Of a stretch of DNA of 64,000 nt, positions 5,680 to 32,246 are shown in pieces. Below the pieces are notes generated by a model. It was given only the letters and a program-made list of their open reading frames with translations, was not told where the DNA came from and did no database searches. The position numbers and the translations under genes are program-made. Source of the stretch: Candidatus Poribacteria bacterium (lineage in GTDB: Bacteria > Poribacteria > WGA-4E > JAJDTR01); the NCBI GenBank assembly GCA_965222225.1, contig CBDCTK010000002.1, positions 288,001-352,000 of the forward strand, written 5' to 3'. Every line of letters begins with the position of its first letter. Positions within the stretch are counted from its first letter, which is position 1.

Positions 5680-5720
5680 GTTGACGTTGTCCTTGCCAAT
5701 TGCCTTTTATTTACGAGTAA

Positions 5721-6731: not shown

Positions 6732-6732
6732 T

Positions 6733-6981: not shown

Positions 6982-6991
6982 CCGGTGACTG

Positions 6992-11393: not shown

Positions 11394-13265
11394 ATGGATG
11401 AAGAGATGCGAGTGAACAATCCGCCAATTCAACCCCTTGTGATTTACGACGCCGATTGTGATTTTTGTCGTTTCTGGATTGCTCGCTGGCGGCACGTGAC
11501 GGGAGAACGTGCCGATTACATCTCGTCTCGGGAAGTCGGTGACCGATTCCCCGAGATCCCGCACGAGCATTATCAAAAGGCAGTGCAACTGGTAAATCCT
11601 GACGGCGAAGTCTTTTGCGGCGCCGAAGCCGTTTTTCGCGCATTCGCACACAACGCGCGCCGACGATGGGTATTGGGGTTGTATCAGCGTCTGCCGGGAT
11701 TTGCCCTCATCACCGAGGCGGTATACCGTTTTATCGCGGGACACCGCAAGTTTTTCTCGGCGTTAACGCGCTGGGGTTGGGGGAATCAGCCGATACGTCC
11801 GACGTTCTTCTTGACACGATGGCTGTTCCTCCGACTACTCGGCGTCATTTATCTCGTTGCTTTTCTGTCGCTCTGGACTCAGATTGATGGCTTGATAGGG
11901 AGTGACGGCATTTTGCCCGCCGAGCGATACCTGAGTGCCGTCCGCGAACAGGTCGGTCTTGAGCGGTATTTAGCCTTTCCAACGCTGTGCTGGCTTAACG
12001 ATAGCGATGCCTTTCTACATCTCTTGTGCGGCGGTGGCGTGTTTCTGTCGTTGCTGTTGATTGTCGGGATTGCGCCGGTTCTCGCGCTAACCGGCTTGTG
12101 GGTGTTCTACCTCTCGCTGGTGAGCGCCGGACAGAGTTTCCTTAGTTTCCAGTGGGATGCGTTACTGCTGGAAACCGGTTTTCTCGCAATTTTTTTCGCG
12201 CCGCCGCAAATTCTGCCCGGAATCTCGCGAGAACCGGTGCCATCGCCTGTCGTGTTATGGCTGCTCCGCTGGCTGCTGTTTCGGCTGATGTTCGCTTCCG
12301 GTGTCGTGAAGTTGATGAGCGGCGACCCGACATGGAGTAACCTTACCGCGCTCAATTTTCATTATGAAACGCAGCCGCTCCCAACGTCCCTAGGTTGGTA
12401 CGTCCATCACCTGCCCGAGTGGATTCAGAAGGCCTCCGTGGCAGGGATGTTCGGGGTTGAGATTGTCGTTCCGTTCCTCATCTTTGCACCGCGCCGCCTG
12501 CGATTTCTTGGGGCGATCGCCCTTGTGGCGCTGCAACTCCTAATCGCCGCAACTGGAAATTACTGCTTCTTCAACCTGTTAACGGTCGCACTCTGCGTTT
12601 TATTACTTGACGACGTCATGTTGCGCCGCTGCTTCCCATCCCGGATTGCCAAGAGGTTGACGCTGCCTTCCGCAATAAGTCTTACGCAAAGGTGGAAGCT
12701 CCCGCTCATTGGCGTTTTGGCGGCGTTCATACTACTGGTGAGCGGAATTCGGATGACTGGGACATTTCTGTGGCGCGAGGGGTTTCCGCCGGTCGCTCAA
12801 GGCGTTCTGAAGTGGGTCGCCCCATTTCGTGTAGTAAACAGCTATGGGCTCTTTACTGTGATGACCACTTCTCGACCCGAAATCGGGGTTGAAGGCAGCG
12901 ACGATGGAAGGACGTGGAAGGAGTACAAATTCAAATGGAAGCCTGATGAACTGAACCAGGCACCGCGTTGGGTCGCGCCCCACCAACCGAGACTGGATTG
13001 GCAAATGTGGTTCGCGGCGCTTCGCGGAAACTGCCAGAATGCCCCGTGGTTCGTCAAATTCATGATACGTCTGCTACAGGGATCGCCCGATGTGATCGAG
13101 CTACTGGAGAAGAATCCGTTTCCTGAAACGCCGCCGCGATATGTTCGCGCTGTCCTCTACGACTACCGGTTCACCGACCTGGAGACAAAGCGAGAAAAAG
13201 GGACATGGTGGAAACGCGAGCGGCGAGGACTATATTGCCGCCCGATTGCACTACGCCCGAATTGA
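11394..13265 (+). CDS. DCC1-like thiol-disulfide domain fused to a lipase maturation factor (LMF) domain
   Basis: N-terminal YDADCDFC, followed by LMF motifs FQWDALLLETGF, HYETQPLP, YGLF and PHQPRLDWQMWFAAL. Confidence 0.9.
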   Translation: MDEEMRVNNPPIQPLVIYDADCDFCRFWIARWRHVTGERADYISSREVGDRFPEIPHEHYQKAVQLVNPDGEVFCGAEAVFRAFAHNARRRWVLGLYQRLPGFALITEAVYRFIAGHRKFFSALTRWGWGNQPIRPTFFLTRWLFLRLLGVIYLVAFLSLWTQIDGLIGSDGILPAERYLSAVREQVGLERYLAFPTLCWLNDSDAFLHLLCGGGVFLSLLLIVGIAPVLALTGLWVFYLSLVSAGQSFLSFQWDALLLETGFLAIFFAPPQILPGISREPVPSPVVLWLLRWLLFRLMFASGVVKLMSGDPTWSNLTALNFHYETQPLPTSLGWYVHHLPEWIQKASVAGMFGVEIVVPFLIFAPRRLRFLGAIALVALQLLIAATGNYCFFNLLTVALCVLLLDDVMLRRCFPSRIAKRLTLPSAISLTQRWKLPLIGVLAAFILLVSGIRMTGTFLWREGFPPVAQGVLKWVAPFRVVNSYGLFTVMTTSRPEIGVEGSDDGRTWKEYKFKWKPDELNQAPRWVAPHQPRLDWQMWFAALRGNCQNAPWFVKFMIRLLQGSPDVIELLEKNPFPETPPRYVRAVLYDYRFTDLETKREKGTWWKRERRGLYCRPIALRPN

Positions 13266-18600: not shown

Positions 18601-18994
18601 TTTGCGTAGCCGCGTGCCGGAGCACCTGTCGTTTGCAGGCATTCACGAATTTCGCCAACCCGTAGGTTTCGATGTCCTTTTTGGATTTGAATCCCATGTC
18701 GCGCTCGACATTGACCTCGATCCACAATCCTTGGCAATCAAACCCGTTCTGATACCTTGATTGGTAACCCTGCATCGCCTTGAAACGATGAAACAAATCT
18801 TTGTACGTTCGTCCCCACGCGTGATGGACACCCATCGGGTTATTGGCAGTAATTGGACCATCGATAAAACTCCAACGCGGCGCATTGCGCCGTGCTGTTT
18901 TTAGTCGATCAAAAACCTTACTATCACGCCAAAAGTCTAAGATTTCGTGCTCTTGCGCAATGAAATTGACGGAATTGGGTACATCTTTGAACAT
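15635..18994 (-). CDS. ileS: Isoleucine--tRNA ligase (type 2)
   Basis: DGPITAN, HHAW (HIGH variant), GFDCQG, WTTTPWTL, GTGIVHIAP, EMHKS (KMSKS variant), WYLRRSRRRFW and a C-terminal domain. RBS GAGGAG precedes ATG 18994. Confidence 0.97.
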   Translation of the reverse strand: MFKDVPNSVNFIAQEHEILDFWRDSKVFDRLKTARRNAPRWSFIDGPITANNPMGVHHAWGRTYKDLFHRFKAMQGYQSRYQNGFDCQGLWIEVNVERDMGFKSKKDIETYGLAKFVNACKRQVLRHAATQTEQSIRLGYWMDWNDPELLRELESKMAIDPSQVITVEGPQGPVTDTVEQIVGRLGLPELGGSYFTFSNENNYTIWTILKRCFERGWIYKGTDVMPWCSRCDTGISQHEIATDGYRDLTHTSIFLRFPLRDRPGESLLVWTTTPWTLTSNVAAAVHRDLTYLLVEQDNQRFWLSEGAVENAIRGSYRVIAEKQGAALEGWAYDGPFDELPAQETSGAAAQHRVILWNEVGEAEGTGIVHIAPGCGAEDFELSKQHDLVVIAPLGPGGIYNDGFDWLTARQVHTVAGEIFENLKQKGIVYRLEDYTHRYPVCWRCEDELVFRLVDEWYISMGEQLDKPYEQVTDEEKEQNVRYQMMEVVLNETKWYPDFGLARELDWLRNMHDWMISKKRYWGLALPIYECVECGHFDVIGSAEELKERAVEGWDEFEGHTPHRPWIDAVKIACTNCGSTVSRIPDVGNPWLDAGSVSFSTMQYRTDRDYWQRWFPADLISESFPGQFRNWFYSLIAMSTVMEGHAPFKHNFSYATLFAEDGREMHKSWGNAIWFDDAAEKMGVDVMRWLYCIANPEQNLAFGFNNADEVRRQFLIPLWNVYSFLVTYANVDGWQPTADSVVKFGTPDNLLDRWLVSRLQATIIEVTNRLERYEPDGACRAVEVFLDDLSNWYLRRSRRRFWKSEADADKESAYLTLYHVMVTYSRLLAPFIPFATEEIYCNLVGSVDSDAPESVHLSDYPVADNTLIDEQLEDDMALVRDLIVLGRAARNHSAIKTRQPLGSIAIGGLSDEQISAVERLSELILDELNVKTIDFSDQIGEYATYTVNPNFKQLGPKYGKAVQAIAKAVRGTDAFALKNELDATDELQIEANGVTYTLEKEDVEVRSQPREGYMVEADAQKFVALSTELTHELTLEGFARELVNKIQQMRKEADFNISDRISLSLKSTPIVHEAFNAHRDYITRETLTKHVADSSGESSFVKSQKVNGEAATIGVEQIKI

Positions 18995-19040
18995 CCTTTT
19001 CTCCTCGGTATGTTGCATGACCTAAAACCGGTTTTCTAAC

Positions 19041-20496: not shown

Positions 20497-21216
20497 TCAA
20501 TCTCCCGGATGGGTTTCGTCTGCTGCTAATGTTCTGTGCTTTTTGCCTCCACCAGCAACGTACAGAAAGAAGATTGTTCCGGCGATTGCGAGGAGTATCC
20601 ACAAAACCCCCCAGAAGAGCGTTGGAATGTTAGTCATCTCCGCGAGCATTCGCGCATCTGATCGTAGATGCGCACGATCCAGAATGTCGCTCTTGATATC
20701 AAGAATAGCGTAGAGGCAGCTCGTTACACCAATAACTTGAAGGATCCAACGGTTTACCGAGCTATTCAGGAATTTTCCGCTTATGACGAGCACCGCGCCG
20801 AACCCGATGCCAAACACAAGACCGAATAGATTACGTAGATACAGTACCGAGACAGCAATCATCCCAATGCCTATAACGACGCTTAAGGTTTTGTCCAGTC
20901 GGGCTCGTACGGCGAGGAGAAGAATCAACCCGCCCCAAATCAAGCTACCAAGATAGCCGGCGGTCAGTGTCCAGAAAGGCGATCCGCCCCTAGTGATTGC
21001 GTGTCCGCCCTCTTGGGAAACGACAACGATTTCTTCAATTTGACCGCCCGTAGCCATTGCCGCGACGCCGTGGCTGATTTCGTGCATAAACACGACAAAT
21101 ATCTTCAAAGGATACACAACGGGTGTGTTCCACAACAGAGTGACAGCGACGAATATCAGGATTATTCCGCCGTTTAGCCTTCTGAAGAATTCTTTAATCA
21201 CATCAGTTTCCTCCAA
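20497..21216 (-). CDS. M50B-family membrane metallopeptidase
   Basis: HEISH zinc motif, AGYLG and SDA motif; multiple TM helices. Confidence 0.85.
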   Translation of the reverse strand: MEETDVIKEFFRRLNGGIILIFVAVTLLWNTPVVYPLKIFVVFMHEISHGVAAMATGGQIEEIVVVSQEGGHAITRGGSPFWTLTAGYLGSLIWGGLILLLAVRARLDKTLSVVIGIGMIAVSVLYLRNLFGLVFGIGFGAVLVISGKFLNSSVNRWILQVIGVTSCLYAILDIKSDILDRAHLRSDARMLAEMTNIPTLFWGVLWILLAIAGTIFFLYVAGGGKKHRTLAADETHPGD

Positions 21217-21268
21217 TCCTTTGGATAACTCGTTGCCCGAATCACTCCGTGATTAGACACATTTTCCG

Positions 21269-21297
21269 TTGATATTGCACCGCCGATATGCTATAGT
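21269..21297 (+). promoter_or_regulatory. Putative sigma70 promoter of aroC
   Basis: TTGATA-17 nt-TATAGT with an extended TG. Confidence 0.45.
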
Positions 21298-21389
21298 TGC
21301 ATTTGGGTTGTTTCTGTATGGTAATACCATTTTGTGCGGCTTGTCAAGAGGATTTCGGCACAGTTCTTTTCAAGTCTCGGGGTTAGGGA

Positions 21390-22481
21390 ATGAACACATT
21401 TGGCCATCTCTTTCGCATCACGACATGGGGCGAATCCCACGGCAACGCCATCGGTGTTGTGGTAGATGGCTGTCCACCCTTATTGAGAATCGACACGGAG
21501 GCGATCCAGTTTGAATTGGATCGGCGCCGTCCTGGCCAGAGCAGTCTCACGACTCCCCGGCAGGAGGAAGACCAAGTCGAAATTCTCTCGGGTGTTTTCG
21601 AGGGAAAAACACTCGGTACCCCGATATCCATGTTGGTGAAGAACAAAGATGCGAAACCTTCCGCGTATAACCATCTGAAAGACATTTATCGGCCCTCGCA
21701 CGCCGATTTTACGTATAAGCAGAAATATGGCATTTACAACTGGCAGGGCGGTGGACGTGCCAGCGCACGGGAGACCATTGGACGGGTCGCCGCAGGCGCA
21801 ATTGCCAAGCAGATTTTACGAGAAACCTGCGGCACGGAGATTCTCGCTTACATCAAGCAAATTCACACAATAGAGGCTGAAGTTGATTCGGAGACAATCA
21901 CACTAGATGAGATTGAATCGAGTCCCGTACGATGCCCTGACCGTATCGCAAGCAAAAAGATGGCAGCCTGTATCGATCAGGCGCGGCGAGACGGGGACTC
22001 GCTTGGCGGCATAATCGAGTCCGTTTCCCGCGATGTTCCGACGGGACTTGGCGAACCGGTGTTCGACAAACTGAAAGCGGATCTTGCCAAAGCGATGATG
22101 TCTCTCCCCGCAACGATGGGCTTTCAAATTGGCTCAGGGTTTGGTGGGGTCACGTCGACCGGATCGTCCCACAACGACCCGTTCTACAGCGATCACGGCA
22201 GAATCCGCACACGGACGAACAATTCGGGCGGAACTCAAGGCGGCATCTCAAACGGTGAGAATATTCTGTTCCAGGTGGCATTCAAGCCGACAGCGACAAT
22301 TCGTAAGGAGCAGGAAACGGTTGATGCCCAAGGCAATTCGGTAACCCTGTCCGCCCATGGCAGGCATGACCCGTGCGTTCTGCCCCGTGCACCGGCTATC
22401 GTCGAGGCAATGACGGCACTAGTGTTGGTTGACCACTTCCTGCGTCAAAACGCGAAAAAATTGGACGAGATTCAGACTTGA
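21390..22481 (+). CDS. aroC: Chorismate synthase
   Basis: [28 protein letters not shown] and GRHDPCV motifs. Confidence 0.98.
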
Positions 22482-22656
22482 TGAAGTCCCAGTATGTGTT
22501 CAAATATGCGCAACATCACGGTAACCAATCTACATGTCGTGATGTGTAGCAAGAGAGTTCCTAGGCATTCCACGCAAGTGCGCAATTCAGATTGGGTTTT
22601 CGACTCTTATGGTGACACACCGTCGCCGATTCTCATGAATTGATGGTCAAGGATTA

Positions 22657-23625
22657 ATGCAGCCGAAACAACATAATCACAATCTCGTTATTGATGTCGG
22701 CACAAATTCTGTGCATATGCTCGTCTGTGATGTAGGGACTAACGGACAAAAACCTAAGGTTGTCTTTGACGATCGAAGAATCACGCGGCTGGGACATGGA
22801 TTGATGCTGACAAATGAACTCCAAGAGGAAGCGATGGCGCGTACCTGCGCCACCATTCGCGAATTCGCCGTACAAGCGGGACGGTTAGGGGTTGAACAGG
22901 TGGTCGCTGTTGGTACGAGTGCTCTCCGCGAAGCGAGAAATGCCGCCGAGTTTGTGAAGCGCGTCGTGGATCGATGTGACATCGAAATCGAAATTATATC
23001 GGGAGAAACCGAAGCTCGATGTGCTTTCTTGTCAATTCGATTAGACGAGTATTTTAGACATCTCAACGGCGACCACATCATGGTGGTGGATATCGGTGGC
23101 GGGAGTACGGAGATTATAGTGGGCAGACGGAAGATTGACAACTTCGTGAGTGTGAACCTCGGTGCTGTTTATCTAACGGAGACCTTTCTCGCAAGCGACC
23201 CACCAACTGTTGAAGAATTGGGGATGCTGTATTCCTTCCTTGAGGAGACTTGGTCAACGCAGCCGATTGCTACTGCGAAGTTTCATTCGGCACCGGTGCT
23301 GACAGGAATTGGAGGAACAATCGTAAACCTTGTAGGCATAAAACTTGGCTTGAATCACTTTAATCCGCGGCTGCTCCATGGGCAGATGCTGTACATTTCG
23401 GAAATTGAAAATCAGATTCGCCAATTGTGTTCCGTTCCCTTGGAGGAACGCAAGCAGATTCCCGGATTGGAAGTCAAGCGTGCGGACATTATCACTGCAG
23501 GCGCGGCTGTTCTTCGGAGCATTCTAAAGCATTTTGGCGCCTCACGAATTCGTGTCAGCACGCATGGCTTGCGCTACGGCATAATGTACGATCGGTTTGT
23601 CTCGCAAAGCGATGGTAGTATTTAG
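22657..23625 (+). CDS. ppx: Ppx/GppA exopolyphosphatase (short form)
   Basis: IDVGTNS, GTSALREARN, ISGETEA, DIGGGSTE, RADII and GLRYG motifs. Confidence 0.92.
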   Translation: MQPKQHNHNLVIDVGTNSVHMLVCDVGTNGQKPKVVFDDRRITRLGHGLMLTNELQEEAMARTCATIREFAVQAGRLGVEQVVAVGTSALREARNAAEFVKRVVDRCDIEIEIISGETEARCAFLSIRLDEYFRHLNGDHIMVVDIGGGSTEIIVGRRKIDNFVSVNLGAVYLTETFLASDPPTVEELGMLYSFLEETWSTQPIATAKFHSAPVLTGIGGTIVNLVGIKLGLNHFNPRLLHGQMLYISEIENQIRQLCSVPLEERKQIPGLEVKRADIITAGAAVLRSILKHFGASRIRVSTHGLRYGIMYDRFVSQSDGSI

Positions 23626-23652
23626 CGGGTCGGTTTGTCAAGAAGGAACTCT

Positions 23653-24675
23653 GTGGAGATTATGGATTCGGCAATATCCTTGGGGCTTGAGAAACTTGGA
23701 CAGGAAGATTACGTTGTCGGCGTGGATATGGGTGGTACGAAGATTCTCGCCGCGGTCATCGGTTCAAATGGGCAAATCGTGTCACGGTTTAAGGTGATGA
23801 CCAGAGCGGATAAAAGCGCCGAAGAGGTCATTAATCGAATATCCGATTGTATCTTCCAATCAATTGCACAGGCGAACCTGCAACAATCACAGATTCGGGG
23901 AATTGGCGTCGGTGCTCCTGGAGTGGTCGATTCAAAAACAGGCGTTATTATTTTTGCACCAAACCTTCGTTGGACGAATGTAGCCCTAAAATCTGTTCTT
24001 GAAAATCAGTTCAAAATTCCCGTATCCGTCGACAACGACGTGAATCTGGGGACGCTCGGCGAGCAGACGTTAGGAGCTGGAAGAGGAGTTGATAATCTCG
24101 TCGGCATTTTCATTGGTACTGGCATCGGCGGCGGAATAATTCTAAATGGTAAGCTATTTTATGGAGCCAACTGGACCGCGGGTGAAATCGGGCATGTTAT
24201 CCTAAAACCCGATGGGCCCAAATGCAGTTGCGGAAATCGAGGCTGTCTGGAGGCGCTTGCCAGCCGAACCGCCATCTCACGACATGTTCGGAAAGCCATC
24301 ACTCAGCAAGGAAAAAAAAGCATCCTCCCGGAACTAAACGGCGGTAATCTTGACTTGGTGCGTAGCGGTGCCTTGGCTAAGGCGGTGAAGAGAGGTGACA
24401 GGGTGACGACCAAGGCGATTCAGCGGGCGCAGTATTATCTTGGAATAGGGGTCGCGACAGTTGTCGGATTCGTAAATCCCCAAGTCGTCGTGCTCGGTGG
24501 CGGTCTCATTGAAGCCATGGGCGAGGATTTTGTGAATGGTGTATATAATGTCGCAGCGGAACTCGCTCTTCCCAATGCCATGAACGGTGTAGAAGTTGTA
24601 AGTGCGATGCTCGGAGATGACGCAGGTGTCATCGGAGCCGCGGTGCTTGCCTGCCAAAATCCTGGGTTGGAGTGA
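23653..24675 (+). CDS. ROK-family sugar kinase (glucokinase-like)
   Basis: GVDMGGTK, GAPG, DNDVN, GTGIGGG, GEIGH and CSCGNRGCLE. No HTH domain; start codon uncertain. Confidence 0.9.
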   Translation: MEIMDSAISLGLEKLGQEDYVVGVDMGGTKILAAVIGSNGQIVSRFKVMTRADKSAEEVINRISDCIFQSIAQANLQQSQIRGIGVGAPGVVDSKTGVIIFAPNLRWTNVALKSVLENQFKIPVSVDNDVNLGTLGEQTLGAGRGVDNLVGIFIGTGIGGGIILNGKLFYGANWTAGEIGHVILKPDGPKCSCGNRGCLEALASRTAISRHVRKAITQQGKKSILPELNGGNLDLVRSGALAKAVKRGDRVTTKAIQRAQYYLGIGVATVVGFVNPQVVVLGGGLIEAMGEDFVNGVYNVAAELALPNAMNGVEVVSAMLGDDAGVIGAAVLACQNPGLE

Positions 24676-24793
24676 AAGGAACGTTGTCTCATGCTAGCTA
24701 AAGCGATGCCTGTAATCGGACATGCTTGTGGGCACGCAGTAAGTTCATGTTTCGGTTAGTTGATATTAGCAATCACTGATTCAGGAGGAATAA

Positions 24794-25537
24794 ATGAGCC
24801 GTCTTACACAATCTCATCCCTATCCGGGCAAGCTCTTTGTGGTTGAAGGGATTGACGGGTCTGGCAAAAGCACGCAGTTGGACCTGTTACATAAATGGTT
24901 GGTTGCCGAAGGATTCAATGTGTTTTTCACGGAGTGGAACTCTTCGCCGCTTGTCAAGCAGACGAACAAAAAGGGTAAGAAGAAAAACCTTTTGACCCCT
25001 ACGACGTTCAGTGTTCTACATGCGACCGACTTCGCGGATCGATTAGCCAACATGATCGTCCCTCCTCTTCAGGCAGGTATGATTGTCCTGGCGGATCGCT
25101 ATGTATACACCGCTTTTGCGCGAGATGTCGTTCGCGGAGTTCACCCGAACTGGGTCCGCAATCTGTACTCGTTCGCTGTCAAACCGGACATTGCATTCTA
25201 TTTCAAGGTACCCATTGATGTATCAATAAGGCGGGTCACTGTCGGACGTGCAGGTCTCAAGTTCTACGAGGCGGGTATGGATCTCGGGTTGAGTGACGAT
25301 CCCGTCACCAGCTTTAGGTTGTTCCAGGGCAAAGTGATTGATGAATACGATCGATTGACGGAGGAGTTTGGACTGACCGTCATTGACGGGAGCGGCCCAA
25401 TCAACGAGCAACAGGAGAGGCTGCGCGATTTGGTCTGCAATGAGTTAAGAGACTATGCTATCCACCACCGCCCGATGACCATTCCGGAACTACATCGCGG
25501 CACCACGACTGAGGTTACAACGTCATCCGCTCCGTGA
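24794..25537 (+). CDS. Thymidylate-kinase-like P-loop kinase, subunit A
   Basis: VEGIDGSGKSTQ, TEWNSS, VLADRY and YEAGMD. RBS AGGAGG. Confidence 0.85.
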   Translation: MSRLTQSHPYPGKLFVVEGIDGSGKSTQLDLLHKWLVAEGFNVFFTEWNSSPLVKQTNKKGKKKNLLTPTTFSVLHATDFADRLANMIVPPLQAGMIVLADRYVYTAFARDVVRGVHPNWVRNLYSFAVKPDIAFYFKVPIDVSIRRVTVGRAGLKFYEAGMDLGLSDDPVTSFRLFQGKVIDEYDRLTEEFGLTVIDGSGPINEQQERLRDLVCNELRDYAIHHRPMTIPELHRGTTTEVTTSSAP

Positions 25538-25659
25538 ATTAATCCGTGAAACACAGGTAAGACGAGTTTCCCGAATCTGGCTATCAACCTCACATCACAT
25601 AGGGCGGTTATCTATGCAAAATAATTTTCTGCGGCTCGAAATCTTCGGGAGAGGGAAAG

Positions 25660-26391
25660 ATGAGAGAGGAAATATTCTACGGCGAAGGGTTGCCTTACGT
25701 TGACACTACCGATCTGAGTGGAAAACTGATTGTCATCGAAGGTACTGATGGAGTCGGTAGATCTACTCAAATCGAGGGTACTAATGAAAGCGGCAAATCG
25801 ACGCCGATCGAAGGGTTGAAAAAATGGCTTGAGGTACAAGGCTACGGTGTGGTCAGCACGGGTTGGACGCGATCGCCACTATTGGGGCCCGCAATTGATG
25901 CGATCAAGCAGGGAAACACGTTGAACCAAATTACGTACAGCATTCTATATGCAGCCGATTTTGCCGATCGTCTCGAAAACGTGATTATTCCAGCCCTGAA
26001 GGGTGGTTTTATCGTTCTTGCCGATCGCTATATGTACACAGCCTTCGCGCGTCATGTCGTTCGAGGTGTCGATCCACAATGGCTTCGCGGAATCTATGGA
26101 TTCGCCCCGCTACCCGACCTTGTAATTTATTTGAAAATTGGACTTGAGGGCTTGATTCAACGCACCTTCACTTCCGGGAGAAGTATGAAATATTGGGAAT
26201 CCGGTATGGACATCGGCTTTCGTGGCGGTCTGTATGAAAGTTTCGCCGAATATCAAACTCTTGTCCTTGAAGAGTTTGACAAAATGACCGATGAGTTTGG
26301 ATTCACAGTGCTTGACGCATCGCCCAAAATCGAGCAGGTAAATCAAAACCTCAAAGAGGTAATTGGAGAGTTCCTCACGACTTCGAGCTAG
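25660..26391 (+). CDS. Thymidylate-kinase-like protein, subunit B, with duplicated P-loop
   Basis: IEGTDGVGRSTQ-IEGTNESGKSTP-IEG, VLADRY and YWESGMD. Confidence 0.85.
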   Translation: MREEIFYGEGLPYVDTTDLSGKLIVIEGTDGVGRSTQIEGTNESGKSTPIEGLKKWLEVQGYGVVSTGWTRSPLLGPAIDAIKQGNTLNQITYSILYAADFADRLENVIIPALKGGFIVLADRYMYTAFARHVVRGVDPQWLRGIYGFAPLPDLVIYLKIGLEGLIQRTFTSGRSMKYWESGMDIGFRGGLYESFAEYQTLVLEEFDKMTDEFGFTVLDASPKIEQVNQNLKEVIGEFLTTSS

Positions 26392-26561
26392 CAACCGCTG
26401 GGCGATGTAATGTTGCTGGTCTCATTCCGTGATCGAAGCAGCTGTTTCTTCCAAGTTCGACCTGAAATGATACTTAACGCTTTTCAAGATTCCTGCCGTC
26501 ATGTCTGCTGCCGAGCCACTCAGGAAAAATATGAATTGCGTATTACTCACAAGGGAAGTTC

Positions 26562-29500
26562 ATGCCTCAAGAATATATTGACATCGGCGGCGCATGCGAA
26601 CATAATCTCAAGAATATCAGCCTTCGACTCCCGAAGGATAAACTAATTGTCTTCACTGGTGTCAGCGGTTCCGGCAAGTCCTCACTAGCGTTTGATACGA
26701 TCTACGCTGAAGGCCAACGCCGCTATATCGAATCCCTTTCCGCATACGCCCGTCAATTCCTTGGCCAACTGGAACGACCTGATGTCGACTTCATCAGTGG
26801 CCTCTCCCCCTCAATTTCAATTGACCAAAAATCCACAGGACACAACCCTCGTTCAACTGTAGCAACTGTTACAGAGATTTATGACTACCTGCGCGTTCTC
26901 TTCGCGCGCGTCGGTACACCGCATTGTCTCGAATGTGGTCGCCCCGTGGGAGCTCAAACAGGAGATGCGATTGTCGATCAGATTGTGGGTTTTCCGGAGC
27001 GGACGCGAATACTCATTTTAGCGCCAATTGTGAGCGGTCGTCGCGGGGAGTATCGTGAAGACTTGGCAGACGCGAGAAAAGCCGGATTCGTTCGCGCGAG
27101 GATCGATGGGCAGATATACGAACTGGCGGATGAAATCCAGCTTAATCGGAACCAACGGCACGACATTGAGCTTGTCGTCGATAGGCTCATCATCAAACCC
27201 GATATCCGCAGTCGAGTCGCTGAAGCCGTTGAGACCGCATTGCGAATGGGGAATGGTCGGCTTATCGTCCACATCGTCTCAACTCCCGACTCTATGGAGG
27301 AGGGAGAGAAGGGTGACGAACAGCCGAGTTCCGCAGATCTTTTGTTCAGCAAGGACTATACCTGCGTTCACTGTAACATCAGCTATGAACCCCCTGCGCC
27401 CCGTCATTTTTCCTTCAACAGTCCGGCTGGCATGTGCCCATCATGCAAGGGCTTAGGGAACAAAACGGAAATGTCACCGGACCTGGTCGTACCCGATCCA
27501 ACCAAGTCCATTCAAGAAGGTGCGATTGTCTTTTGGGGAACGCTTGATACCCTCCAGACCCGCCATCTCGCCTTTAGTGTGGCGGACTATCTTGGATTTG
27601 ACATTGATACCCCTTGGAAAGATTTGACCGAGGAGCAACGACACATCGTCCTTTACGGTACCGGGAACAAGAAAATCCCGTTCGTTTATCAAACTCGCCG
27701 AAATCGTCGCCTTAAATACACAGCGCCGTATGAGGGTGTTATTCCCCCTGAAGAGCGGAAGTATTTCCAAAGCAATTCAGAGTTACACAAGCGGTATCTG
27801 TCGAAATACATGGTCTCGGGGGCATGTCCCGAGTGCCATGGACAGCGGCTTAAGCCTGAAGTCAAGTCAGTATCAATTGCGGGAAAATCAATTCTTGATG
27901 TCGTCGCCATGACAATCAGTAATAGTCTTGAATTCTTTGAAAAACTTCAGTTGTCCGAGCGTGAGGCATTTATTGCAACCGATTTGCTCAAAGAGATTAA
28001 GGGACGTATTGGGTTCTTGATTAACGTTGGTCTGCACTATCTAACACTAGACCGCACAGCGCCAACACTTTCCGGTGGAGAATCGCAGCGAATTCGATTG
28101 GCAAGTCAGGTGGGTGCCGGCTTACGCGGCGTAATTTATGTGCTTGATGAACCGAGTATCGGGTTGCATCCACGAGATAATGCGCATCTACTCGCGACGC
28201 TGCAACTCCTTAGAGATCAGGGAAACACGGTCATTGTTGTTGAACACGACGAGGACACGATGTGGGCTGGAGATTTAATCGTGGACTTCGGGCCGGGACC
28301 GGGGGTTAAGGGCGGAGAGATTTCTGCCATTGGTACGCCTCAAGAATTGCTTGACAACTCGAATACGCTGACAGCACAGTATCTGCGCGGTGAACAACGG
28401 ATTGACATCCCGGTCGAGCGCCGGTTTGTCGGTGACCGTTGGCTTGAAATCGCCGGTGCGCGTCACAACAATCTCAAGAATATTGATGTGCGAGTCCCCA
28501 TCGGCAGTTTTACCTGCGTAACCGGAGTGAGCGGGTCGGGCAAGAGTTCCTTGATTAACGATATCCTGTATGAGGCGCTCGCACGTGAGTTGATGAAAGC
28601 GCACGGCGATCCTGGGAATCACAAGGCGATACGAGTGCTCATGTGCGAAAACGAGGATATGGAGAATCCAGAACCTGAGAGTCTCGACACAGATTTTGAA
28701 GAGTTCTCAAGCCAGAACTTTGAGTCAGCCCCATCCGAGTCCTTTCAATCGGAGTTGTCTAGCCTCCAGGTGCCAGTCGTTAGTATAATCGACAAAGTCA
28801 TCGACATTGATCAAGCGCCCATCGGACGAACTCCTAGGTCCAACCCCGCTACCTATACCAAAGTATTCGATCGCATTCGAGCGCTATATGCCGAACTTGC
28901 CGACTCAAAGCTGCGGGGATATAAGCCAGGGAGGTTTAGTTTTAATGTCTCTGGGGGCCGCTGCGAAGCGTGCCAGGGTAACGGTGCACGGCGTATCGAA
29001 ATGCACTTCTTGGCGGACGTTTGGGTGAAATGCAACGTTTGTCACGGTCGGCGGTACAACGAAGAAACGTTGCAAGTAAAATACCGCGACAAAAGCATTG
29101 TAGATGCGCTGAACATGGATGTACAAGAAGCGCTAGAGCACTTTGCCAATGTACCCTCGATTGCGCATGTTCTCCAAACACTGCACGAGGTGGGATTGGA
29201 TTATATCAAACTCGGTCAACCTGCCCCGACACTCTCCGGCGGGGAGGCGCAACGGATTAAGCTTGCGCGCGAACTTGCCAAACGCAGCACGGGAAAAACG
29301 CTCTACATTCTTGATGAGCCGACGACAGGGTTGCATTTCGACGATGTCAAGAAGTTATTGGATGTATTGCATCGGCTCGTTGACAAGGGTAACACTGTTG
29401 TCGTGGTCGAGCACAATCTGGAAGTTGTCAAAACGGCGGACTACGTAATTGACCTTGGTCCCGAAGGCGGTGAGGAGGGCGGGTACGTTGTAGCCCTTGG

Positions 29501-32246
29501 CCGCCCGGAAGATGTAGCAGAAATAGATGAATCATACACAGGGCAAGCATTAAAGAAGATTTTGGACGGTGGAAGAAATGATGAACGCATGCCTCACGCC
29601 TATCAATCTGCGTCATCCTTGCCCGCTAGTATCAGTGAGGAGCAGATGGTAGCGACTTCCGGTGGCGCGCTGCGCGAGACCGGATCCACGTATCAAACTG
29701 AGCAAGTTAGTGAAGGAATCAACAATCGTCGACATATATCTGTGCACGGTGCGCGGGAACATAACTTGAAAGATGTGGACGTGGATATCCCCCATCGGAA
29801 GCTGACAACACTTACGGGAGTAAGCGGCTCAGGCAAGACTTCCTTGGCGCTAGACACTATTTTTGCCGAAGGTCAGCGACGGTATGTCGAATCCCTATCA
29901 GCTTATGCTCGTCAGTTCCTTGGGCAACTCCAGAAACCGAAGGTCGAAAAAATCGAAGGGCTTTCGCCCGCCATTGCAATCGAACAGAAACCTCCAAGTC
30001 AAAACCCGCGGTCAACCGTAGGAACGGTAACAGAGATTTATGACTATTTGCGCGTTTTGTACGCACGCGCTGGAAATCCGCACTGTCCGAAATGCGGGGC
30101 GGAAGTTGGTGCTCAAACACTTCAACAAATTGTCGATAAGATTGCAACGTTGCCGGTCGGAACACGGGTGTACATTCTCTCGCCACTGGTCTTAAGGAAC
30201 AACGAAGACTATCCGGCGGCATTTCGCCGGTTACAAAAGGAGGGCTATGCGCGTCTTGAGATAAACGGCGAGATTGTCCCGCTTGACAAGACGCCTAAAA
30301 TAGGCAAGACCATCAAGCACGATGTCAAAATAGTAGTTGATCGCATGGCACTTGACCCCGAAGAGCAGGGGAGATTGTCGGAAGCTGTCGAGATTGCACT
30401 CAACCAAAGTAACGGCGTCGTTGTTCTCAAGACCGACGATACGGCATTTAGTCCAATTTTTTTCAGTGTACACTCCGCCTGCCTCTCCTGCGAGATAAGT
30501 TTCCCGGAGTTGACGCCGCGCCACTTTTCATTCAATAGTCCGCTGGGACAGTGTCCACAGTGCGAAGGAATTGGAACATATTACAGTGGACAGCGAAGCT
30601 GTGGGGAGTGCAACGGCACACGCATCCAGCCTTTCCCACGACATGTGCAAATTTGCCACAAAACCATAGCGGATGTCACGGCTATGTCCATTGGAGAGGC
30701 AACGCAGTTTTTCGCAGACCCTCGAGAGGAGGGGACGAATAGCACGACACATGTGACGCAGGAGATGCTGCCCCATCAGGTCGAGATTGCGCGTAATCTC
30801 TTGAATGAGATTCAAAACCGTCTTCAATTCCTTATGGACGTGGGACTTCACTATTTGACGTTGGATCGCCCTGCACCGACGCTTTCAGGCGGCGAGATGG
30901 AGCGAATTCGACTGGCGAGCCAGCTTGGCAGCGGGCTAACGGGTGTAACCTATATTCTGGACGAGCCCAGTGTCGGGTTACACCAGCGCGATCAGGAGCG
31001 ATTATTGAGAGCTTTAGCGCATCTTCGAGATCTCGGAAACAGCGTACTCGTAGTTGAGCATGATATGGAGACGATGTTGTTGTCCGACCATATCGTCGAT
31101 TTTGGTCCCGGCGCGGGCAAACTTGGTGGCGAGGTTGTCAGCACCGGTTCGCCGGATGAAATTAAAGAAGACGAAAACTCGGTTACGGGGCGTTATTTGG
31201 CTGGAACGATAAAAATAGATGTTCCCAAAACGCGGCGATCCGGAAAAGGAGAATGGCTTGAAATCACTAACGCTCAAACGAATAATCTCAAATCGATTGA
31301 CGCGAAGATTCCTTTGGGAACTCTCACATGCGTGACTGGGGTTTCCGGCTCAGGTAAGAGTTCCCTCATTGAAGAAACCCTATACCCCGCTTTGGCAACC
31401 GACTTGAATAAAACAAAGATGCGGACCGGAAAGTATAAATCAATCCTCGGAATGCAGCACCTTGACAAACTGATTAACATTAATCAGCAACCGATAGGCG
31501 AAACACCTCGATCCAACCCGGCGACCTACACCGATATTTTCACGAAGGTGCGGTATCTTTTCGCCGAACTGCCGGAAGCAAAGACGCGAGGGTTCGATTC
31601 CAGGCGATTCAGTTTTAACTTAAAAGACGGACAGTGTGAGAACTGCCACGGACATGGACATACCCGCGTTGAAATGCACTTTTTGGCTGATGTCTGGGTA
31701 AAATGTGAAACCTGCAGCGGCACAGGTTACAATCACGAGACTCTACAAATCCGCTACAAAGGGAAGAATATCGCTGAAATCCTTGATATGACGGTAAGCG
31801 AAGCTTTAGATCACTTTCAAAATGTAGCTACAATCCGCAAGCCGTTACAGATGCTTTACGATGTCGGCTTGGACTACATCGAACTCGGACAGGCAGCGAC
31901 AACCCTATCCGGCGGCGAGGCACAGCGCGTCAAACTGGCGAGCGAACTTGCCAAACGAAGTACGGGCAAAACCATCTTTATCATGGATGAACCAACCACC
32001 GGGTTGCATTTCGCCGACGTGAAGAAGCTCCTCAACGTGCTGAATCGCTTGGTGGATAAGGGTAACACCATTGTAGTGATTGAACACAATCTTGATGTTA
32101 TCAAGTGTGCGGATTGGGTCATTGATCTTGGGCCTGAAGGCGGCGATGCCGGAGGAGAGATTGTCGCCATGGGGACGCCCGAGATTGTAGCCGCGGAGGG
32201 GGCCTCACCTACGGGTAGGTTTTTGCAGAAAGCACTCGCATCGTGA
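26562..32246 (+). CDS. uvrA: Excinuclease ABC subunit A, double-length (two fused UvrA units)
   Basis: 1894 aa with four Walker A motifs (GVSGSGKS/T), LSGGE signatures and CxxC zinc modules. Confidence 0.96.
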   Translation: MPQEYIDIGGACEHNLKNISLRLPKDKLIVFTGVSGSGKSSLAFDTIYAEGQRRYIESLSAYARQFLGQLERPDVDFISGLSPSISIDQKSTGHNPRSTVATVTEIYDYLRVLFARVGTPHCLECGRPVGAQTGDAIVDQIVGFPERTRILILAPIVSGRRGEYREDLADARKAGFVRARIDGQIYELADEIQLNRNQRHDIELVVDRLIIKPDIRSRVAEAVETALRMGNGRLIVHIVSTPDSMEEGEKGDEQPSSADLLFSKDYTCVHCNISYEPPAPRHFSFNSPAGMCPSCKGLGNKTEMSPDLVVPDPTKSIQEGAIVFWGTLDTLQTRHLAFSVADYLGFDIDTPWKDLTEEQRHIVLYGTGNKKIPFVYQTRRNRRLKYTAPYEGVIPPEERKYFQSNSELHKRYLSKYMVSGACPECHGQRLKPEVKSVSIAGKSILDVVAMTISNSLEFFEKLQLSEREAFIATDLLKEIKGRIGFLINVGLHYLTLDRTAPTLSGGESQRIRLASQVGAGLRGVIYVLDEPSIGLHPRDNAHLLATLQLLRDQGNTVIVVEHDEDTMWAGDLIVDFGPGPGVKGGEISAIGTPQELLDNSNTLTAQYLRGEQRIDIPVERRFVGDRWLEIAGARHNNLKNIDVRVPIGSFTCVTGVSGSGKSSLINDILYEALARELMKAHGDPGNHKAIRVLMCENEDMENPEPESLDTDFEEFSSQNFESAPSESFQSELSSLQVPVVSIIDKVIDIDQAPIGRTPRSNPATYTKVFDRIRALYAELADSKLRGYKPGRFSFNVSGGRCEACQGNGARRIEMHFLADVWVKCNVCHGRRYNEETLQVKYRDKSIVDALNMDVQEALEHFANVPSIAHVLQTLHEVGLDYIKLGQPAPTLSGGEAQRIKLARELAKRSTGKTLYILDEPTTGLHFDDVKKLLDVLHRLVDKGNTVVVVEHNLEVVKTADYVIDLGPEGGEEGGYVVALGRPEDVAEIDESYTGQALKKILDGGRNDERMPHAYQSASSLPASISEEQMVATSGGALRETGSTYQTEQVSEGINNRRHISVHGAREHNLKDVDVDIPHRKLTTLTGVSGSGKTSLALDTIFAEGQRRYVESLSAYARQFLGQLQKPKVEKIEGLSPAIAIEQKPPSQNPRSTVGTVTEIYDYLRVLYARAGNPHCPKCGAEVGAQTLQQIVDKIATLPVGTRVYILSPLVLRNNEDYPAAFRRLQKEGYARLEINGEIVPLDKTPKIGKTIKHDVKIVVDRMALDPEEQGRLSEAVEIALNQSNGVVVLKTDDTAFSPIFFSVHSACLSCEISFPELTPRHFSFNSPLGQCPQCEGIGTYYSGQRSCGECNGTRIQPFPRHVQICHKTIADVTAMSIGEATQFFADPREEGTNSTTHVTQEMLPHQVEIARNLLNEIQNRLQFLMDVGLHYLTLDRPAPTLSGGEMERIRLASQLGSGLTGVTYILDEPSVGLHQRDQERLLRALAHLRDLGNSVLVVEHDMETMLLSDHIVDFGPGAGKLGGEVVSTGSPDEIKEDENSVTGRYLAGTIKIDVPKTRRSGKGEWLEITNAQTNNLKSIDAKIPLGTLTCVTGVSGSGKSSLIEETLYPALATDLNKTKMRTGKYKSILGMQHLDKLININQQPIGETPRSNPATYTDIFTKVRYLFAELPEAKTRGFDSRRFSFNLKDGQCENCHGHGHTRVEMHFLADVWVKCETCSGTGYNHETLQIRYKGKNIAEILDMTVSEALDHFQNVATIRKPLQMLYDVGLDYIELGQAATTLSGGEAQRVKLASELAKRSTGKTIFIMDEPTTGLHFADVKKLLNVLNRLVDKGNTIVVIEHNLDVIKCADWVIDLGPEGGDAGGEIVAMGTPEIVAAEGASPTGRFLQKALAS

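What the first reader, a model, noticed from the sequence alone, without database searches (positions are those of the whole stretch)
22657..26391. Putative polyphosphate module: ppx + ROK kinase + heteromeric pair of thymidylate-kinase-like proteins
Seen: four co-directional genes encoding Ppx/GppA, a ROK kinase and two paralogous TMK-fold proteins. The two share YEAGMD/WESGMD and ADFADRL motifs that ordinary Tmk lacks; one has a canonical GKST P-loop, the other GRST. Established: PPK2 polyphosphate kinases share the thymidylate-kinase fold, and polyP-dependent glucokinases are ROK proteins. From memory and unverified, a two-subunit archaeal polyP kinase built from 'thymidylate kinase' genes beside ppx has been reported. 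Inference: these are not dTMP kinases but a catalytic plus regulatory heteromeric polyP kinase, co-expressed with polyP degradation and possibly polyP-driven sugar phosphorylation. This would be a poorly described bacterial polyP system.
Basis: partly seen in the sequence, partly recalled or inferred. Interest (0 to 1): 0.78.

Follow-up and report, generated by a model that had tools for sequence, protein, structure and literature searches.

The report
Bacterial PPK3-type polyphosphate kinase operon
Two neighbouring genes labelled "thymidylate kinase" in a likely sponge-symbiont (Poribacteria) genome are most likely the two subunits of the recently described PPK3 polyphosphate kinase, sitting beside a polyphosphate-degrading enzyme and an ordinary sugar kinase.

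Summary
The four genes are at the stated coordinates: short Ppx/GppA, ROK kinase and two TMK-fold paralogs, A and B, 43% identical.

Both window proteins match the solved Sulfurisphaera tokodaii cPPK3 homolog far better than any true Tmk (E 1e-56 and 1e-40, against 1e-13 and 1e-11). A–B adjacency holds in 75 of 80 related loci and ppx lies nearby in 50–55.

A keeps the Walker A lysine and a basic patch. B always has Walker A arginine and lacks that patch, but keeps the DRX arginine that the paper reports as lost in rPPK3. A complex model passes its controls (0.72 against 0.00).

The ROK protein resembles ATP-glucokinases, not polyP-glucokinases, and is absent from all 80 related loci.

B carries a 12-residue duplication of its P-loop segment, seen in only 5 of 120 listed homologs.

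Verdict: a new, probably poribacterial, member of a known family with some variant features. No activity was measured.

The parts
22657..23625 (+). Short (two-domain) Ppx/GppA-family phosphatase, 322 aa; probable exopolyphosphatase
   Evidence: PF02541 at E 2.4e-59. TIGR03706 scores 234.7 bits, below its cut-off of 307. The best solved relatives are 308-315-aa exopolyphosphatase chains (2j4r, 1t6c/1t6d), E about 1e-44. The closest named homologs are Candidatus Poribacteria Ppx/GppA proteins, 85% and 78% identical. It is only 23-37% identical to the PPX genes of the other PPK3-like loci, most of which are about 510-530 aa. One representative of those, of 509 aa, also carries Ppx-GppA domain III.
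23635..24675 (+). ROK-family sugar kinase, glucokinase-like, 346 aa from the TTG (337 aa if the ATG at 23662 is the start)
   Evidence: PF00480 at E 7.1e-76. TIGR00744 ROK glucokinase scores 247.1 bits against a cut-off of 260.35. NF045942 polyP-glucose phosphotransferase scores 52.1 against 250. PDB: glucokinases 2qm1 (2e-58) and 3vgk (8.6e-53), against polyP/ATP-glucomannokinase 1woq at 5.9e-16 over the N-terminal half only. The sequence contains CSCGNRGCLE; I recognise this from recall as the ROK zinc motif. No ROK homolog occurs in any of the 80 related loci.
24794..25537 (+). TMK-fold protein A: predicted catalytic subunit (cPPK3-like) of a PPK3-type polyphosphate kinase, 247 aa
   Evidence: The best PDB sequence hit is 2plr/5h70, the S. 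tokodaii cPPK3 homolog, at E 1.3e-56, against 3.6e-13 for the best true Tmk. TIGR00041 scores 80.3, below its cut-off of 83.25. Walker A reads GSGKST and DRX reads DRY. Basic residues K55, K59, K63, K64, R152 and K156 are conserved in 78-100% of 63 A-type proteins against 0-36% of 55 B-type proteins. A sits in the Lys-P-loop clade with the Nitrososphaerota A proteins and the Sulfolobales-type representative P0211.
25660..26391 (+). TMK-fold protein B: predicted non-catalytic or regulatory partner (rPPK3-equivalent), 243 aa, with Arg in place of the Walker A Lys
   Evidence: PDB 2plr/5h70 at E 1.1e-40, against 3.8e-11 for the best true Tmk. The AF2 model (pLDDT 90.5) is closest to 2plr/5h70 (Foldseek E 1.9e-18, TMt 0.90), ahead of Tmk at about 5e-12. 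Walker A Arg occurs in 75/75 locus B proteins, 55/55 and 118/120 database homologs. DRX is kept in 72/75 and 120/120. A B-only N-terminal motif F-Y-G-x-G-L-P-Y is conserved. The B clade is monophyletic, support 99 and 96.
25738..25809 (+). 36-nt tandem duplication inside B: EGTDGVGRSTQI followed by EGTNESGKSTPI, which doubles the P-loop segment
   Evidence: Read from the sequence: 25/36 nt and 7/12 aa identical between the copies. A P-loop-like insert is present in only 5 of the 120 listed B homologs (P0001-P0005, 73-94% identity). In those the second copy varies (GKLT, GRPA, GKPT, GKPA) while the first is constant. In the AF2 model the first copy is the P-loop after strand 22-27, and residues 40-52 form an excursion that splits helix alpha-1.

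Best explanation
This is a PPK3-type polyphosphate module in a bacterium whose closest named relatives are Candidatus Poribacteria. Protein A is the catalytic subunit. Its P-loop and DRX arginine would transfer phosphate between ATP/ADP and the end of a polyP chain held in a basic cleft. By analogy with the characterised Sulfolobus enzyme, the favoured direction is polyP + ADP -> ATP, with net polyP synthesis only at a high ATP/ADP ratio. Protein B is a paralog that has lost the catalytic lysine (Walker A K->R), the lid basics and the basic patch. It is proposed to bind A and raise its activity through oligomerisation. The short Ppx upstream hydrolyses polyP to Pi. The ROK kinase between them is an ordinary ATP-type glucokinase placed here in this lineage only; at most it uses ATP that A/B regenerate from polyP.

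Shown here: homology, conserved pairing, neighbourhood, residue patterns and a complex model that passes its controls.

Inferred: every enzymatic activity, the stoichiometry, co-transcription and the role of B.
For: (1) Both proteins match the solved S. tokodaii cPPK3 homolog (2plr/5h70) at E 1.3e-56 (A) and 1.1e-40 (B). The best true Tmk scores 3.6e-13 and 3.8e-11. The B model's best structural match is the same protein.

(2) PMC12995831 (sections read) shows by assay that Saci_2019 makes polyP, that Saci_2020 is inactive but activates it, and that neither has dTMP kinase activity. It defines PPK3 as such pairs beside ppx in archaea and bacteria.

(3) In the 80 best related loci from at least 454 species genomes, a whole B lies beside A in 75. 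In 4 the contig ends and in 1 B is fragmented.

(4) ppx is found in 50/80 loci by BLAST and in 55/79 by clustering. Further neighbours are SixA-like His_Phos_1 (27 loci), OmpR-type regulator (19), PstB-like (13), PhoU (8), PstC/A-like (7), PstS-like (6) and PPK2 (4).

(5) The trees split a Lys-P-loop clade from an Arg-P-loop clade. The first holds window A, the Nitrososphaerota A proteins and the Sulfolobales-type P0211. The second holds window B and the Nitrososphaerota B proteins. Support for the Arg clade is 99 and 96. Data S1 of the paper scores Nitrosotalea as PPK3-positive.

(6) Basics at A positions 55, 59, 63, 64, 152 and 156 are conserved in A only. This matches the paper's statement that the polyP-cleft residues are conserved in cPPK3 but not in rPPK3.

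(7) Complex prediction on A+B scored 0.72; the best of 3 controls scored 0.00. That mark was reached by 116 of 157 solved complexes and by 2 of 215 mismatched pairs. The runs agree in at least 93% of contacts and the partner's pLDDT is at least 83.

(8) Single polypeptides with an A-type domain followed by a B-type domain exist: P0019 and P0121.
Against: No activity was measured, and only the Sulfolobus enzyme has been assayed.

B keeps the DRX arginine that the paper gives as the reason for rPPK3 inactivity. Its inactivity is therefore inferred from other substitutions and is less certain. B also scores just above the NCBIfam dTMP-kinase cut-off (86.2 against 83.25).

The complex pass may come from memory. 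The predicted interface (A 66-85 and 115-127; B 88-107 and 141-148) uses equivalent helices of the two paralogs. From recall, that is the usual Tmk homodimer face, and Tmk dimers are solved.

I could not check whether the genome has a separate tmk or lacks ppk1/ppk2; none of these lies in the 64-kb window.

The window's ppx belongs to a different, short subtype from the ppx of most related loci. Gaps of 118 and 122 nt separate ROK-A and A-B, whereas the A and B ORFs abut or overlap in most of the other loci. No promoter or terminator evidence settles co-transcription.

The trees have no canonical Tmk outgroup.
Confidence: 0.8

Rival explanations
1. Both A and B are active kinases, forming a heterodimer of two catalytic subunits or two separate enzymes. 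On this reading B is an Arg-P-loop enzyme with its own substrate rather than a regulatory subunit.
For: B keeps D-R-Y (DR in 72/75 and 120/120). It also keeps the second conserved Arg of DFADR, R131, R135 and R168. The Walker A Arg is invariant rather than decaying: 55/55 and 118/120. This indicates selection for binding a phosphate-bearing ligand.
Against: From general knowledge of P-loop kinases, Lys-to-Arg at Walker A normally abolishes phosphotransfer. B lacks the lid residues R152 and K156, which are 100% and 98% basic in A but 11% and 2% in B. It also lacks the K55-K64 basic patch. The characterised partner Saci_2020 is inactive.
Confidence: 0.1
2. The ROK protein is a polyP-dependent glucokinase, so the operon drives sugar phosphorylation directly from polyP.
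For: The gene lies 9 nt (36 nt with the alternative start) after ppx, in the same orientation. PolyP-glucokinases are ROK-fold proteins; 1woq is a hit at 5.9e-16. Matching contig lengths suggest that ppx and ROK share a contig in four other assemblies, and that B and ROK share an 8.8-kb contig in one more.
Against: NF045942 scores 52 bits against a cut-off of 250, and only residues 28-189 align. The best solved relatives are ATP-glucokinases at E 2e-58 and 8.6e-53, full length. ROK is absent from all 80 related A/B loci. The PPK3 paper reports no such neighbour: 'glucokinase' occurs 0 times in its main text, and the only 'ROK' match is an author name in the reference list.
Confidence: 0.08
3. 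A and B are ordinary or specialised (d)NMP kinases, and the nearness to ppx in this genome is a coincidence.
For: Both match Pfam Thymidylate_kin. B passes the TIGR00041 cut-off by 3 bits. Sources label relatives 'dTMP kinase'.
Against: The match to the cPPK3 structure is about 30-43 orders of magnitude better than to any Tmk. The association with ppx, SixA-like, Pst and PhoU genes recurs across many phyla. The archaeal orthologs have no dTMP kinase activity.
Confidence: 0.03

Closest known systems
SaPPK3 of Sulfolobus acidocaldarius (cPPK3 Saci_2019 + rPPK3 Saci_2020; PMC12995831)
   Same: Both have two adjacent TMK-fold paralogs beside ppx. One subunit has an intact Walker A, DRX and basic cleft residues, and the other lacks the cleft basics. 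A heteromer is predicted here and was measured there (alpha2beta2 by gel filtration).
   Different: The window's B keeps the DRX arginine and instead has Walker A Lys->Arg and has lost the lid basics. A and B are 43% identical, against 22-38% reported for the archaeal c/r pairs. There is no SixA or CHAD gene in the window. A ROK kinase is inserted. The ppx is of the short type. The host is a mesophilic bacterium. I could not obtain the Saci_2020 sequence, so orthology of B with it is untested.
STK_15430 of Sulfurisphaera tokodaii (PDB 2plr, 4nzy, 4rzx, 5h70), deposited as 'dTMP kinase' and treated in the paper as a cPPK3 homolog
   Same: It is the best solved relative of both A (E 1.3e-56, residues 12-217) and B (E 1.1e-40). 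It is also the best structural match of the B model: TMt 0.90, rmsd 2.5.
   Different: It is a single archaeal catalytic-type chain. B differs at Walker A and carries a 12-residue insert and an N-terminal FYGxGLPY extension.
Predicted PPK3 pairs of Nitrososphaerota (for example Nitrosotalea; loci L066, L076, L079, L080)
   Same: The layout is the same: A immediately followed by B, with ppx nearby in 3 of these 4 loci; none was found in L076, a 6.3-kb contig. A is 59-64% and B 40-42% identical to the window's proteins. All four B proteins also have Walker A Arg and keep DRY.
   Different: The hosts are archaeal. Their B proteins have Q for R in the DFADR motif. They have no ROK gene and their PPX ORFs are long, 456-516 aa.
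Two-domain class II PPK2 (for example P. aeruginosa PA3455), as discussed in the paper
   Same: The logic is the same: an inactive P-loop kinase domain serves oligomerisation and activation of an active one.
   Different: It belongs to a different family. A and B have no Pfam PPK2 match at E <= 0.01. In PPK2 the two parts are fused in one chain, whereas here they are separate genes, although A-B fusions exist elsewhere.
ATP-dependent ROK glucokinases (PDB 2qm1, 3vgk)
   Same: The similarity is full-length, E 2e-58 and 8.6e-53. The TIGR00744 score is just under its cut-off.
   Different: Being placed inside a polyP operon is not a known feature of these enzymes. The substrate was not tested.

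Membership tests
PPK3 (family 3 polyphosphate kinase, PMC12995831) | The proteins belong to the dTMPK-superfamily clade that holds cPPK3/rPPK3, apart from canonical dTMP kinases | tested here: met
   2plr/5h70 at E 1.3e-56 (A) and 1.1e-40 (B), against 3.6e-13 and 3.8e-11 for the best true Tmk. Foldseek gives the same order for the B model. The trees place A with the Sulfolobales-type P0211 and the Nitrososphaerota A proteins. Caveat: no canonical Tmk outgroup was available for the trees.
PPK3 (family 3 polyphosphate kinase, PMC12995831) | Two paralogs (c and r) are encoded side by side | tested here: met
   In the window the two genes are 122 nt apart on the same strand. A whole B lies beside A in 75 of 80 related loci.
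PPK3 (family 3 polyphosphate kinase, PMC12995831) | The neighbourhood holds polyP or phosphate genes (ppx, sixA, CHAD, pst, nudix) | tested here: met
   ppx lies in the same gene string in the window. In related loci: ppx 55/79, SixA-like 27, PstB-like 13, PhoU 8, PstC/A-like 7, PstS-like 6. The window itself has no sixA, CHAD or pst gene.
PPK3 (family 3 polyphosphate kinase, PMC12995831) | The catalytic subunit has an intact P-loop Lys, the DRX Arg and conserved positively charged cleft residues | tested here: met
   A has GSGKST and DRY. K25 and R102 are 100% conserved in 63 A-type proteins. Basics at 55, 59, 62-64, 152 and 156 are conserved in A. Their position in a cleft was not checked in 3D.
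PPK3 (family 3 polyphosphate kinase, PMC12995831) | The regulatory subunit lacks the DRX arginine (as stated for rPPK3s in the paper) | tested here: not met
   B reads LADRYMYT. DR is kept in 72/75 locus B proteins and in 120/120 database homologs. B instead has Walker A Arg (118/120) and lacks the lid and patch basics. The supplementary figure with the paper's alignment is a PDF that I could not read.
PPK3 (family 3 polyphosphate kinase, PMC12995831) | The two subunits form a heteromer (alpha2beta2 in SaPPK3) | tested here: inconclusive
   The 1:1 model scores 0.72 and the best of 3 controls 0.00. That mark was reached by 116/157 solved complexes and 2/215 mismatches, with at least 93% contact agreement and partner pLDDT at least 83. 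The pass may reflect solved Tmk homodimers. Stoichiometry was not modelled. A-then-B fusion proteins exist.
PPK3 (family 3 polyphosphate kinase, PMC12995831) | Reversible ATP:polyP phosphotransfer, and no dTMP kinase activity | not testable with these tools
   This needs enzyme assays. It is known only for the S. acidocaldarius proteins.
PPK3 (family 3 polyphosphate kinase, PMC12995831) | A canonical tmk lies elsewhere in the genome, and PPK1/PPK2 are often absent | not testable with these tools
   Only 64 kb is held. No tmk, ppk1 or ppk2 was found among the 47 of the 48 ORFs of at least 90 aa picked that were scanned; window 15635-19018 (-) was not scanned.
Canonical dTMP kinase (NCBIfam TIGR00041 equivalog) | The score reaches the curated equivalog cut-off of 83.25 bits | tested here: inconclusive
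   A scores 80.3 (below) and B 86.2 (just above). Both align far better to the cPPK3 homolog. A's HMMER alignment to the best true Tmk ends at residue 149 of 247.
PPK2 (Pfam PF03976) | A match to the PPK2 domain model | tested here: not met
   Neither A nor B has a PF03976 hit at E <= 0.01. True PPK2 genes, found as neighbours in 4 related loci, match at 5.5e-69.
Polyphosphate-glucose phosphotransferase (NCBIfam NF045942) | The score reaches the curated cut-off of 250 bits, with full-length similarity to PPGK | tested here: not met
   52.1 bits, residues 28-189 only. 1woq at E 5.9e-16, against ATP-glucokinases at 2e-58.
ROK-family glucokinase (NCBIfam TIGR00744 subfamily) | The score reaches the curated cut-off of 260.35 bits | tested here: not met
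   247.1 bits, 13 bits short. Pfam ROK is clearly met at 256 bits against 22.9. Sugar specificity therefore stays open.
Exopolyphosphatase (NCBIfam TIGR03706 exo_poly_only) | The score reaches the curated cut-off of 307 bits | tested here: not met
   234.7 bits. Pfam Ppx-GppA is met at 201.6 bits against 27. The closest solved proteins are short exopolyphosphatase chains of 308-315 aa. PPX and GppA activity cannot be told apart from sequence here.

The most novel reading that the evidence does not exclude
The widespread bacterial and Nitrososphaerota B subunit is not a dead scaffold of the Sulfolobus kind. It would be a distinct regulatory subunit whose invariant Arg-P-loop and retained DRX arginine still bind a phosphate ligand (ADP/ATP or the polyP chain), so that the enzyme senses energy charge or chain ends. 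In this reading PPK3 regulation in most of its hosts works differently from the one case studied. In this lineage the module would also be wired to an ATP-glucokinase, so that polyP -> ATP -> glucose-6-phosphate runs as one unit without any polyP-glucokinase.
Probability: 0.2. Interest if true: 0.6.

Novelty: new member of a known kind. Interest (0 to 1): 0.4.

Why it matters
PPK3 was characterised in one thermoacidophilic archaeon and described as occurring in "a few taxonomically scattered bacteria".

The searches here show it is much more common in bacteria:
- At least 454 species-representative genomes encode a relative. The best 80 loci span Acidobacteriota, Bacteroidota, Chloroflexota, Nitrospirota, Planctomycetota and other groups.
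- 370 clusters at 50% identity match A at E <= 1e-30.
- More than 7,900 clusters at 90% identity match B.

The window adds a lineage, most likely Poribacteria, with no entry in the part of the paper's 47,545-genome table that is held. Many of these genes are annotated as dTMP kinase, so polyP capacity is probably under-called in metagenome surveys. That includes sponge symbionts, whose polyP storage has been linked to marine phosphorus cycling. I know that paper only from a reference list.

The consistent Lys->Arg signature of B, with DRX retained, gives a simple sequence rule for telling the two subunits apart. It also points to a regulatory mechanism different from the published one.

Tried and rejected
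**Searches that failed or could not be made**
- the locus scan with a 29-row alignment failed because no stretch was conserved enough. It was repeated with an 11-row alignment.
- As a substitute I compared 'longest contig' lengths between hit lists. ppx and ROK hits share 20830, 199325, 196185 and 2399266. B and ROK hits share 8770. This is a lead, not proof.
The organism was instead inferred from names attached to ROK and Ppx homologs.
- The closed collections (metagenome contigs, viral contigs) were not searched.

**Gaps in the comparison with the published family**
- I could not obtain Saci_2020.
- P0199 and P0218 have lost DRX, so I considered them as possible Sulfolobus-type r subunits. 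The Atlas placed P0199 nearest to bacterial clusters, so that idea was dropped.
- No canonical Tmk lay in any locus flank to serve as an outgroup.
- The paper's alignment and tree figures are in a PDF supplement that I could not read.

**Scans that gave nothing useful**
- Rfam found nothing at 21000-27000 (E <= 1) or in the whole window. There are no tRNAs.
- The promoter and terminator scan gave no + strand terminator inside the cluster and no informative promoter.

**Hypotheses rejected**
- PPK2 membership was rejected.
- I first considered the second copy (GKST) to be B's real P-loop, because phmmer aligned it to the cPPK3 P-loop. I rejected this because the first copy is the conserved one and the AF2 model uses it.

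Full report
**Observation.**
- 22657-23625, 322 aa
- 23635-24675, 346 aa
- 24794-25537, 247 aa ('A')
- 25660-26391, 243 aa ('B')

Pfam assigns Ppx-GppA (E 2.4e-59), ROK (7.1e-76) and Thymidylate_kin for A (2.8e-20) and B (6.9e-22). A and B are 43% identical (E 4e-65).

One detail was missed. B contains GVGRST and, directly after it, a duplicated segment with ESGKST. This is a 36-nt tandem duplication (25738-25773 and 25774-25809), with 25/36 nt identical by my count on the sequence.

Flanking genes are aroC upstream and a 1894-aa UvrA-like gene downstream. I scanned 47 of the 48 ORFs of at least 90 aa picked against Pfam. None is a tmk, ppk1, ppk2, sixA, CHAD or pst gene.

**The remembered paper is real.** PMC12995831 (J Biol Chem 2026) has an earlier preprint, 10.1101/2024.08.28.610084. 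I read the JBC outline, sections 4, 7, 8 and 9, and parts of its Data S1, and passages of the preprint.
- In S. acidocaldarius, Saci_2019 (cPPK3) makes polyP from ATP.
- Saci_2020 (rPPK3) is inactive but stimulates it.
- Neither protein is a dTMP kinase.
- The complex is alpha2beta2 and prefers polyP + ADP -> ATP.
- The authors define PPK3 as pairs of exapted dTMP-kinase paralogs beside ppx, sixA, CHAD and pst genes, in Sulfolobaceae, Nitrososphaeraceae and "a few" bacteria.

**Are A and B of that family?**
- The best solved relative of both is the S. tokodaii cPPK3 homolog (2plr/5h70): E 1.3e-56 for A and 1.1e-40 for B. The best true Tmk scores 3.6e-13 and 3.8e-11.
- An AF2 model of B (pLDDT 90.5) also matches 2plr/5h70 best (E 1.9e-18, TMt 0.90), ahead of Tmk structures at about 5e-12.
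- A falls below the NCBIfam dTMP-kinase cut-off (80.3 against 83.25). B is just above it (86.2).
- Neither protein matches Pfam PPK2.

**Related loci.** A scan of species-representative genomes found at least 454 that encode a relative. The best 80 loci come from Acidobacteriota, Bacteroidota, Ignavibacteriota, Chloroflexota, Nitrospirota, Planctomycetota, Thermodesulfobacteriota, Armatimonadota and other bacteria, and from four Nitrososphaerota archaea.
- A whole B-type gene lies beside the A-type gene in 75 of 80 loci. In four the contig ends, and in one (L054) B is in fragments.
- In three Planctomycetota loci (L044, L056, L058) the order is B-ppx-A.
- ppx is present in 50/80 loci by BLAST with the window's Ppx and in 55/79 by clustering of neighbours within 6 kb.
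- Other recurrent neighbours are a SixA-like histidine phosphatase (27 loci), an OmpR-type regulator (19), PstB-like (13), PhoU (8), PstC/A-like (7), PstS-like (6) and PPK2 (4).
- This is the neighbourhood the paper describes.
- ROK is in none of the 80.

**Which subunit is which?** The evidence comes from two trees and from subunit-specific residue patterns.

Trees (FastTree on 107 rows; IQ-TREE quick on 52 rows):
- An Arg-P-loop clade (support 99 and 96) holds window B together with all bacterial and Nitrososphaerota B proteins in the set.
- A Lys-P-loop group (95 and 92) holds window A, the Nitrososphaerota A proteins and P0211.
- P0211 is the Sulfolobales cPPK3 type (2plr at E 2.1e-87).

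Joint alignment of 63 A-type and 55 B-type proteins:
- The Walker A residue is Lys in 100% of A and Arg in 100% of B.
- Basic residues at A positions 55, 59, 63, 64, 152 and 156 are 78-100% conserved in A and 0-36% in B.
- This agrees with the paper's statement that the polyP-cleft basics are kept in cPPK3 only.

The DRX arginine behaves differently from the published description:
- The paper says it is replaced in rPPK3s, and uses this to explain their inactivity.
- Here it is kept in B: 98%, 72/75 and 120/120.
- So the large bacterial and Nitrososphaerota B clade is degenerate in a different way from the published description.
- Its invariant Arg argues that the site still binds something.

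B also has its own conserved N-terminal motif, F-Y-G-x-G-L-P-Y.

I could not obtain Saci_2020. Whether the two kinds of second subunit share one origin therefore stays open.

**Do A and B bind?** Complex prediction gave 0.72, and the best of 3 controls gave 0.00. That mark was reached by 116 of 157 solved complexes and by 2 of 215 mismatched pairs. The runs agree in at least 93% of contacts, and the partner's pLDDT is at least 83.
- The interface is A 53-54, 66-85 and 115-127 against B 8-13, 88-107 and 141-148. It uses equivalent helices of the two paralogs plus B's N-terminal motif.
- Tmk homodimers are solved, so the pass may come from memory. It shows likeness, not binding.
- Independent hints are single polypeptides with an A-type domain followed by a B-type domain: P0019 and P0121.

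**The duplication in B.** Of the 120 listed B homologs, 5 (P0001-P0005, 73-94% identical) carry a P-loop-like 12-residue insert.
- Their second copies differ (GKST, GKLT, GRPA, GKPT, GKPA), while the first copy is constant.
- The AF2 model uses the first copy as the P-loop after strand 22-27. The insert (residues 40-52) is an excursion that splits helix alpha-1.
- It looks like a tolerated, decaying duplication in one lineage, not a second active site.

**The other two genes.**
- The Ppx is a short two-domain form. Its best solved relatives are 308-315-aa exopolyphosphatase chains.
- Most related loci carry a PPX ORF of about 510-530 aa. A 509-aa representative also has Ppx-GppA domain III. 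The window's Ppx is only 23-37% identical to these PPX genes.
- The window's ppx-PPK3 association is therefore functional rather than inherited synteny.
- The ROK protein resembles ATP-glucokinases over its full length (2qm1 at 2e-58, 3vgk at 8.6e-53). It resembles the polyP/ATP-glucomannokinase 1woq only weakly (5.9e-16, N-terminal half).
- It scores 52 bits against the 250-bit cut-off of the polyP-glucose phosphotransferase model.
- Direct polyP use is therefore unlikely. Indirect coupling through ATP regenerated by A/B is possible but untested.

**Organism.** The closest named homologs of the ROK and Ppx proteins are from Candidatus Poribacteria: ROK 83% identical, Ppx 85% and 78%. Poribacteria do not occur in the part of the paper's 47,545-genome table that is held, where they would sort between Planctomycetota and Pseudomonadota. 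Two full-text searches found no paper that links Poribacteria with a polyphosphate kinase of this kind.

**Verdict.** This is a new, probably poribacterial, member of the published PPK3 family. Its variant features are an Arg-P-loop partner that keeps DRX, a lineage-specific P-loop duplication, a short Ppx and an embedded ATP-type glucokinase. All enzymatic statements are inferred by homology. The genome-wide checks (separate tmk, absence of ppk1/ppk2) and synteny within Poribacteria could not be made.

Noticed in passing
window 26562-32246 (+): Directly downstream of B lies a 1894-aa ORF that looks like two complete UvrA units fused in tandem. The UvrA interaction domain matches in two stretches, and ABC ATPase regions recur along the whole length.
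   Followed up: no
window 53-10180: A type I restriction-modification locus appears to be disrupted. A 131-aa N6_Mtase fragment (53-448) abuts a DDE transposase on the other strand (452-1471). These are followed by an hsdS-like gene (1501-2877), an AAA_21 ATPase (3722-4909), a DUF433 protein (5721-6731) and hsdR (6992-10180).
   Followed up: no
window 11394-13265 (+): A 623-aa protein joins a DCC1-like thiol-disulfide oxidoreductase domain to lipase-maturation-factor (LMF1 and LMF1_C) domains. From recall, that family is known mainly from eukaryotes.
   Followed up: no
window 48318-49172 and 49175-49897 (+): A trypsin-like protease ORF and a PDZ-domain ORF lie 2 nt apart in different frames. 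This looks like an HtrA/DegP-type gene split by a frameshift, or a sequencing error.
   Followed up: no
window 56232-58807: This stretch of about 2.6 kb holds no ORF of 90 aa or more in my greedy non-overlapping selection, no Rfam match and no tRNA. GC is lowest here: 0.447 in 56001-58000.
   Followed up: no
proteins P0160 (2575 aa), P0173 (1610 aa), P0183, P0190, P0195, P0198, P0219 (1030-1276 aa): Very long proteins of unknown origin carry an embedded A-type (GLDGSGKST ... DR[YWH]) PPK3-like domain at 47-52% identity to A. What the rest of these proteins is was not examined.
   Followed up: no
loci L044, L056, L058 (Planctomycetota): The gene order is B, then a long ppx ORF of 856-1076 aa, then A, instead of A followed by B. 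The long ORFs may be ppx fused to another domain, or they may be over-extended by my ORF caller.
   Followed up: no
proteins P0021, P0022 (324-329 aa): These are B-type proteins with an N-terminal helix-turn-helix domain (PF13384), 60-62% identical to B. They suggest that some B subunits are fused to a DNA-binding domain.
   Followed up: no
locus L054:10738-11366: In this Chloroflexia MAG the B gene is broken into three short ORFs while A is intact. This is either a pseudogene or an assembly error.
   Followed up: no
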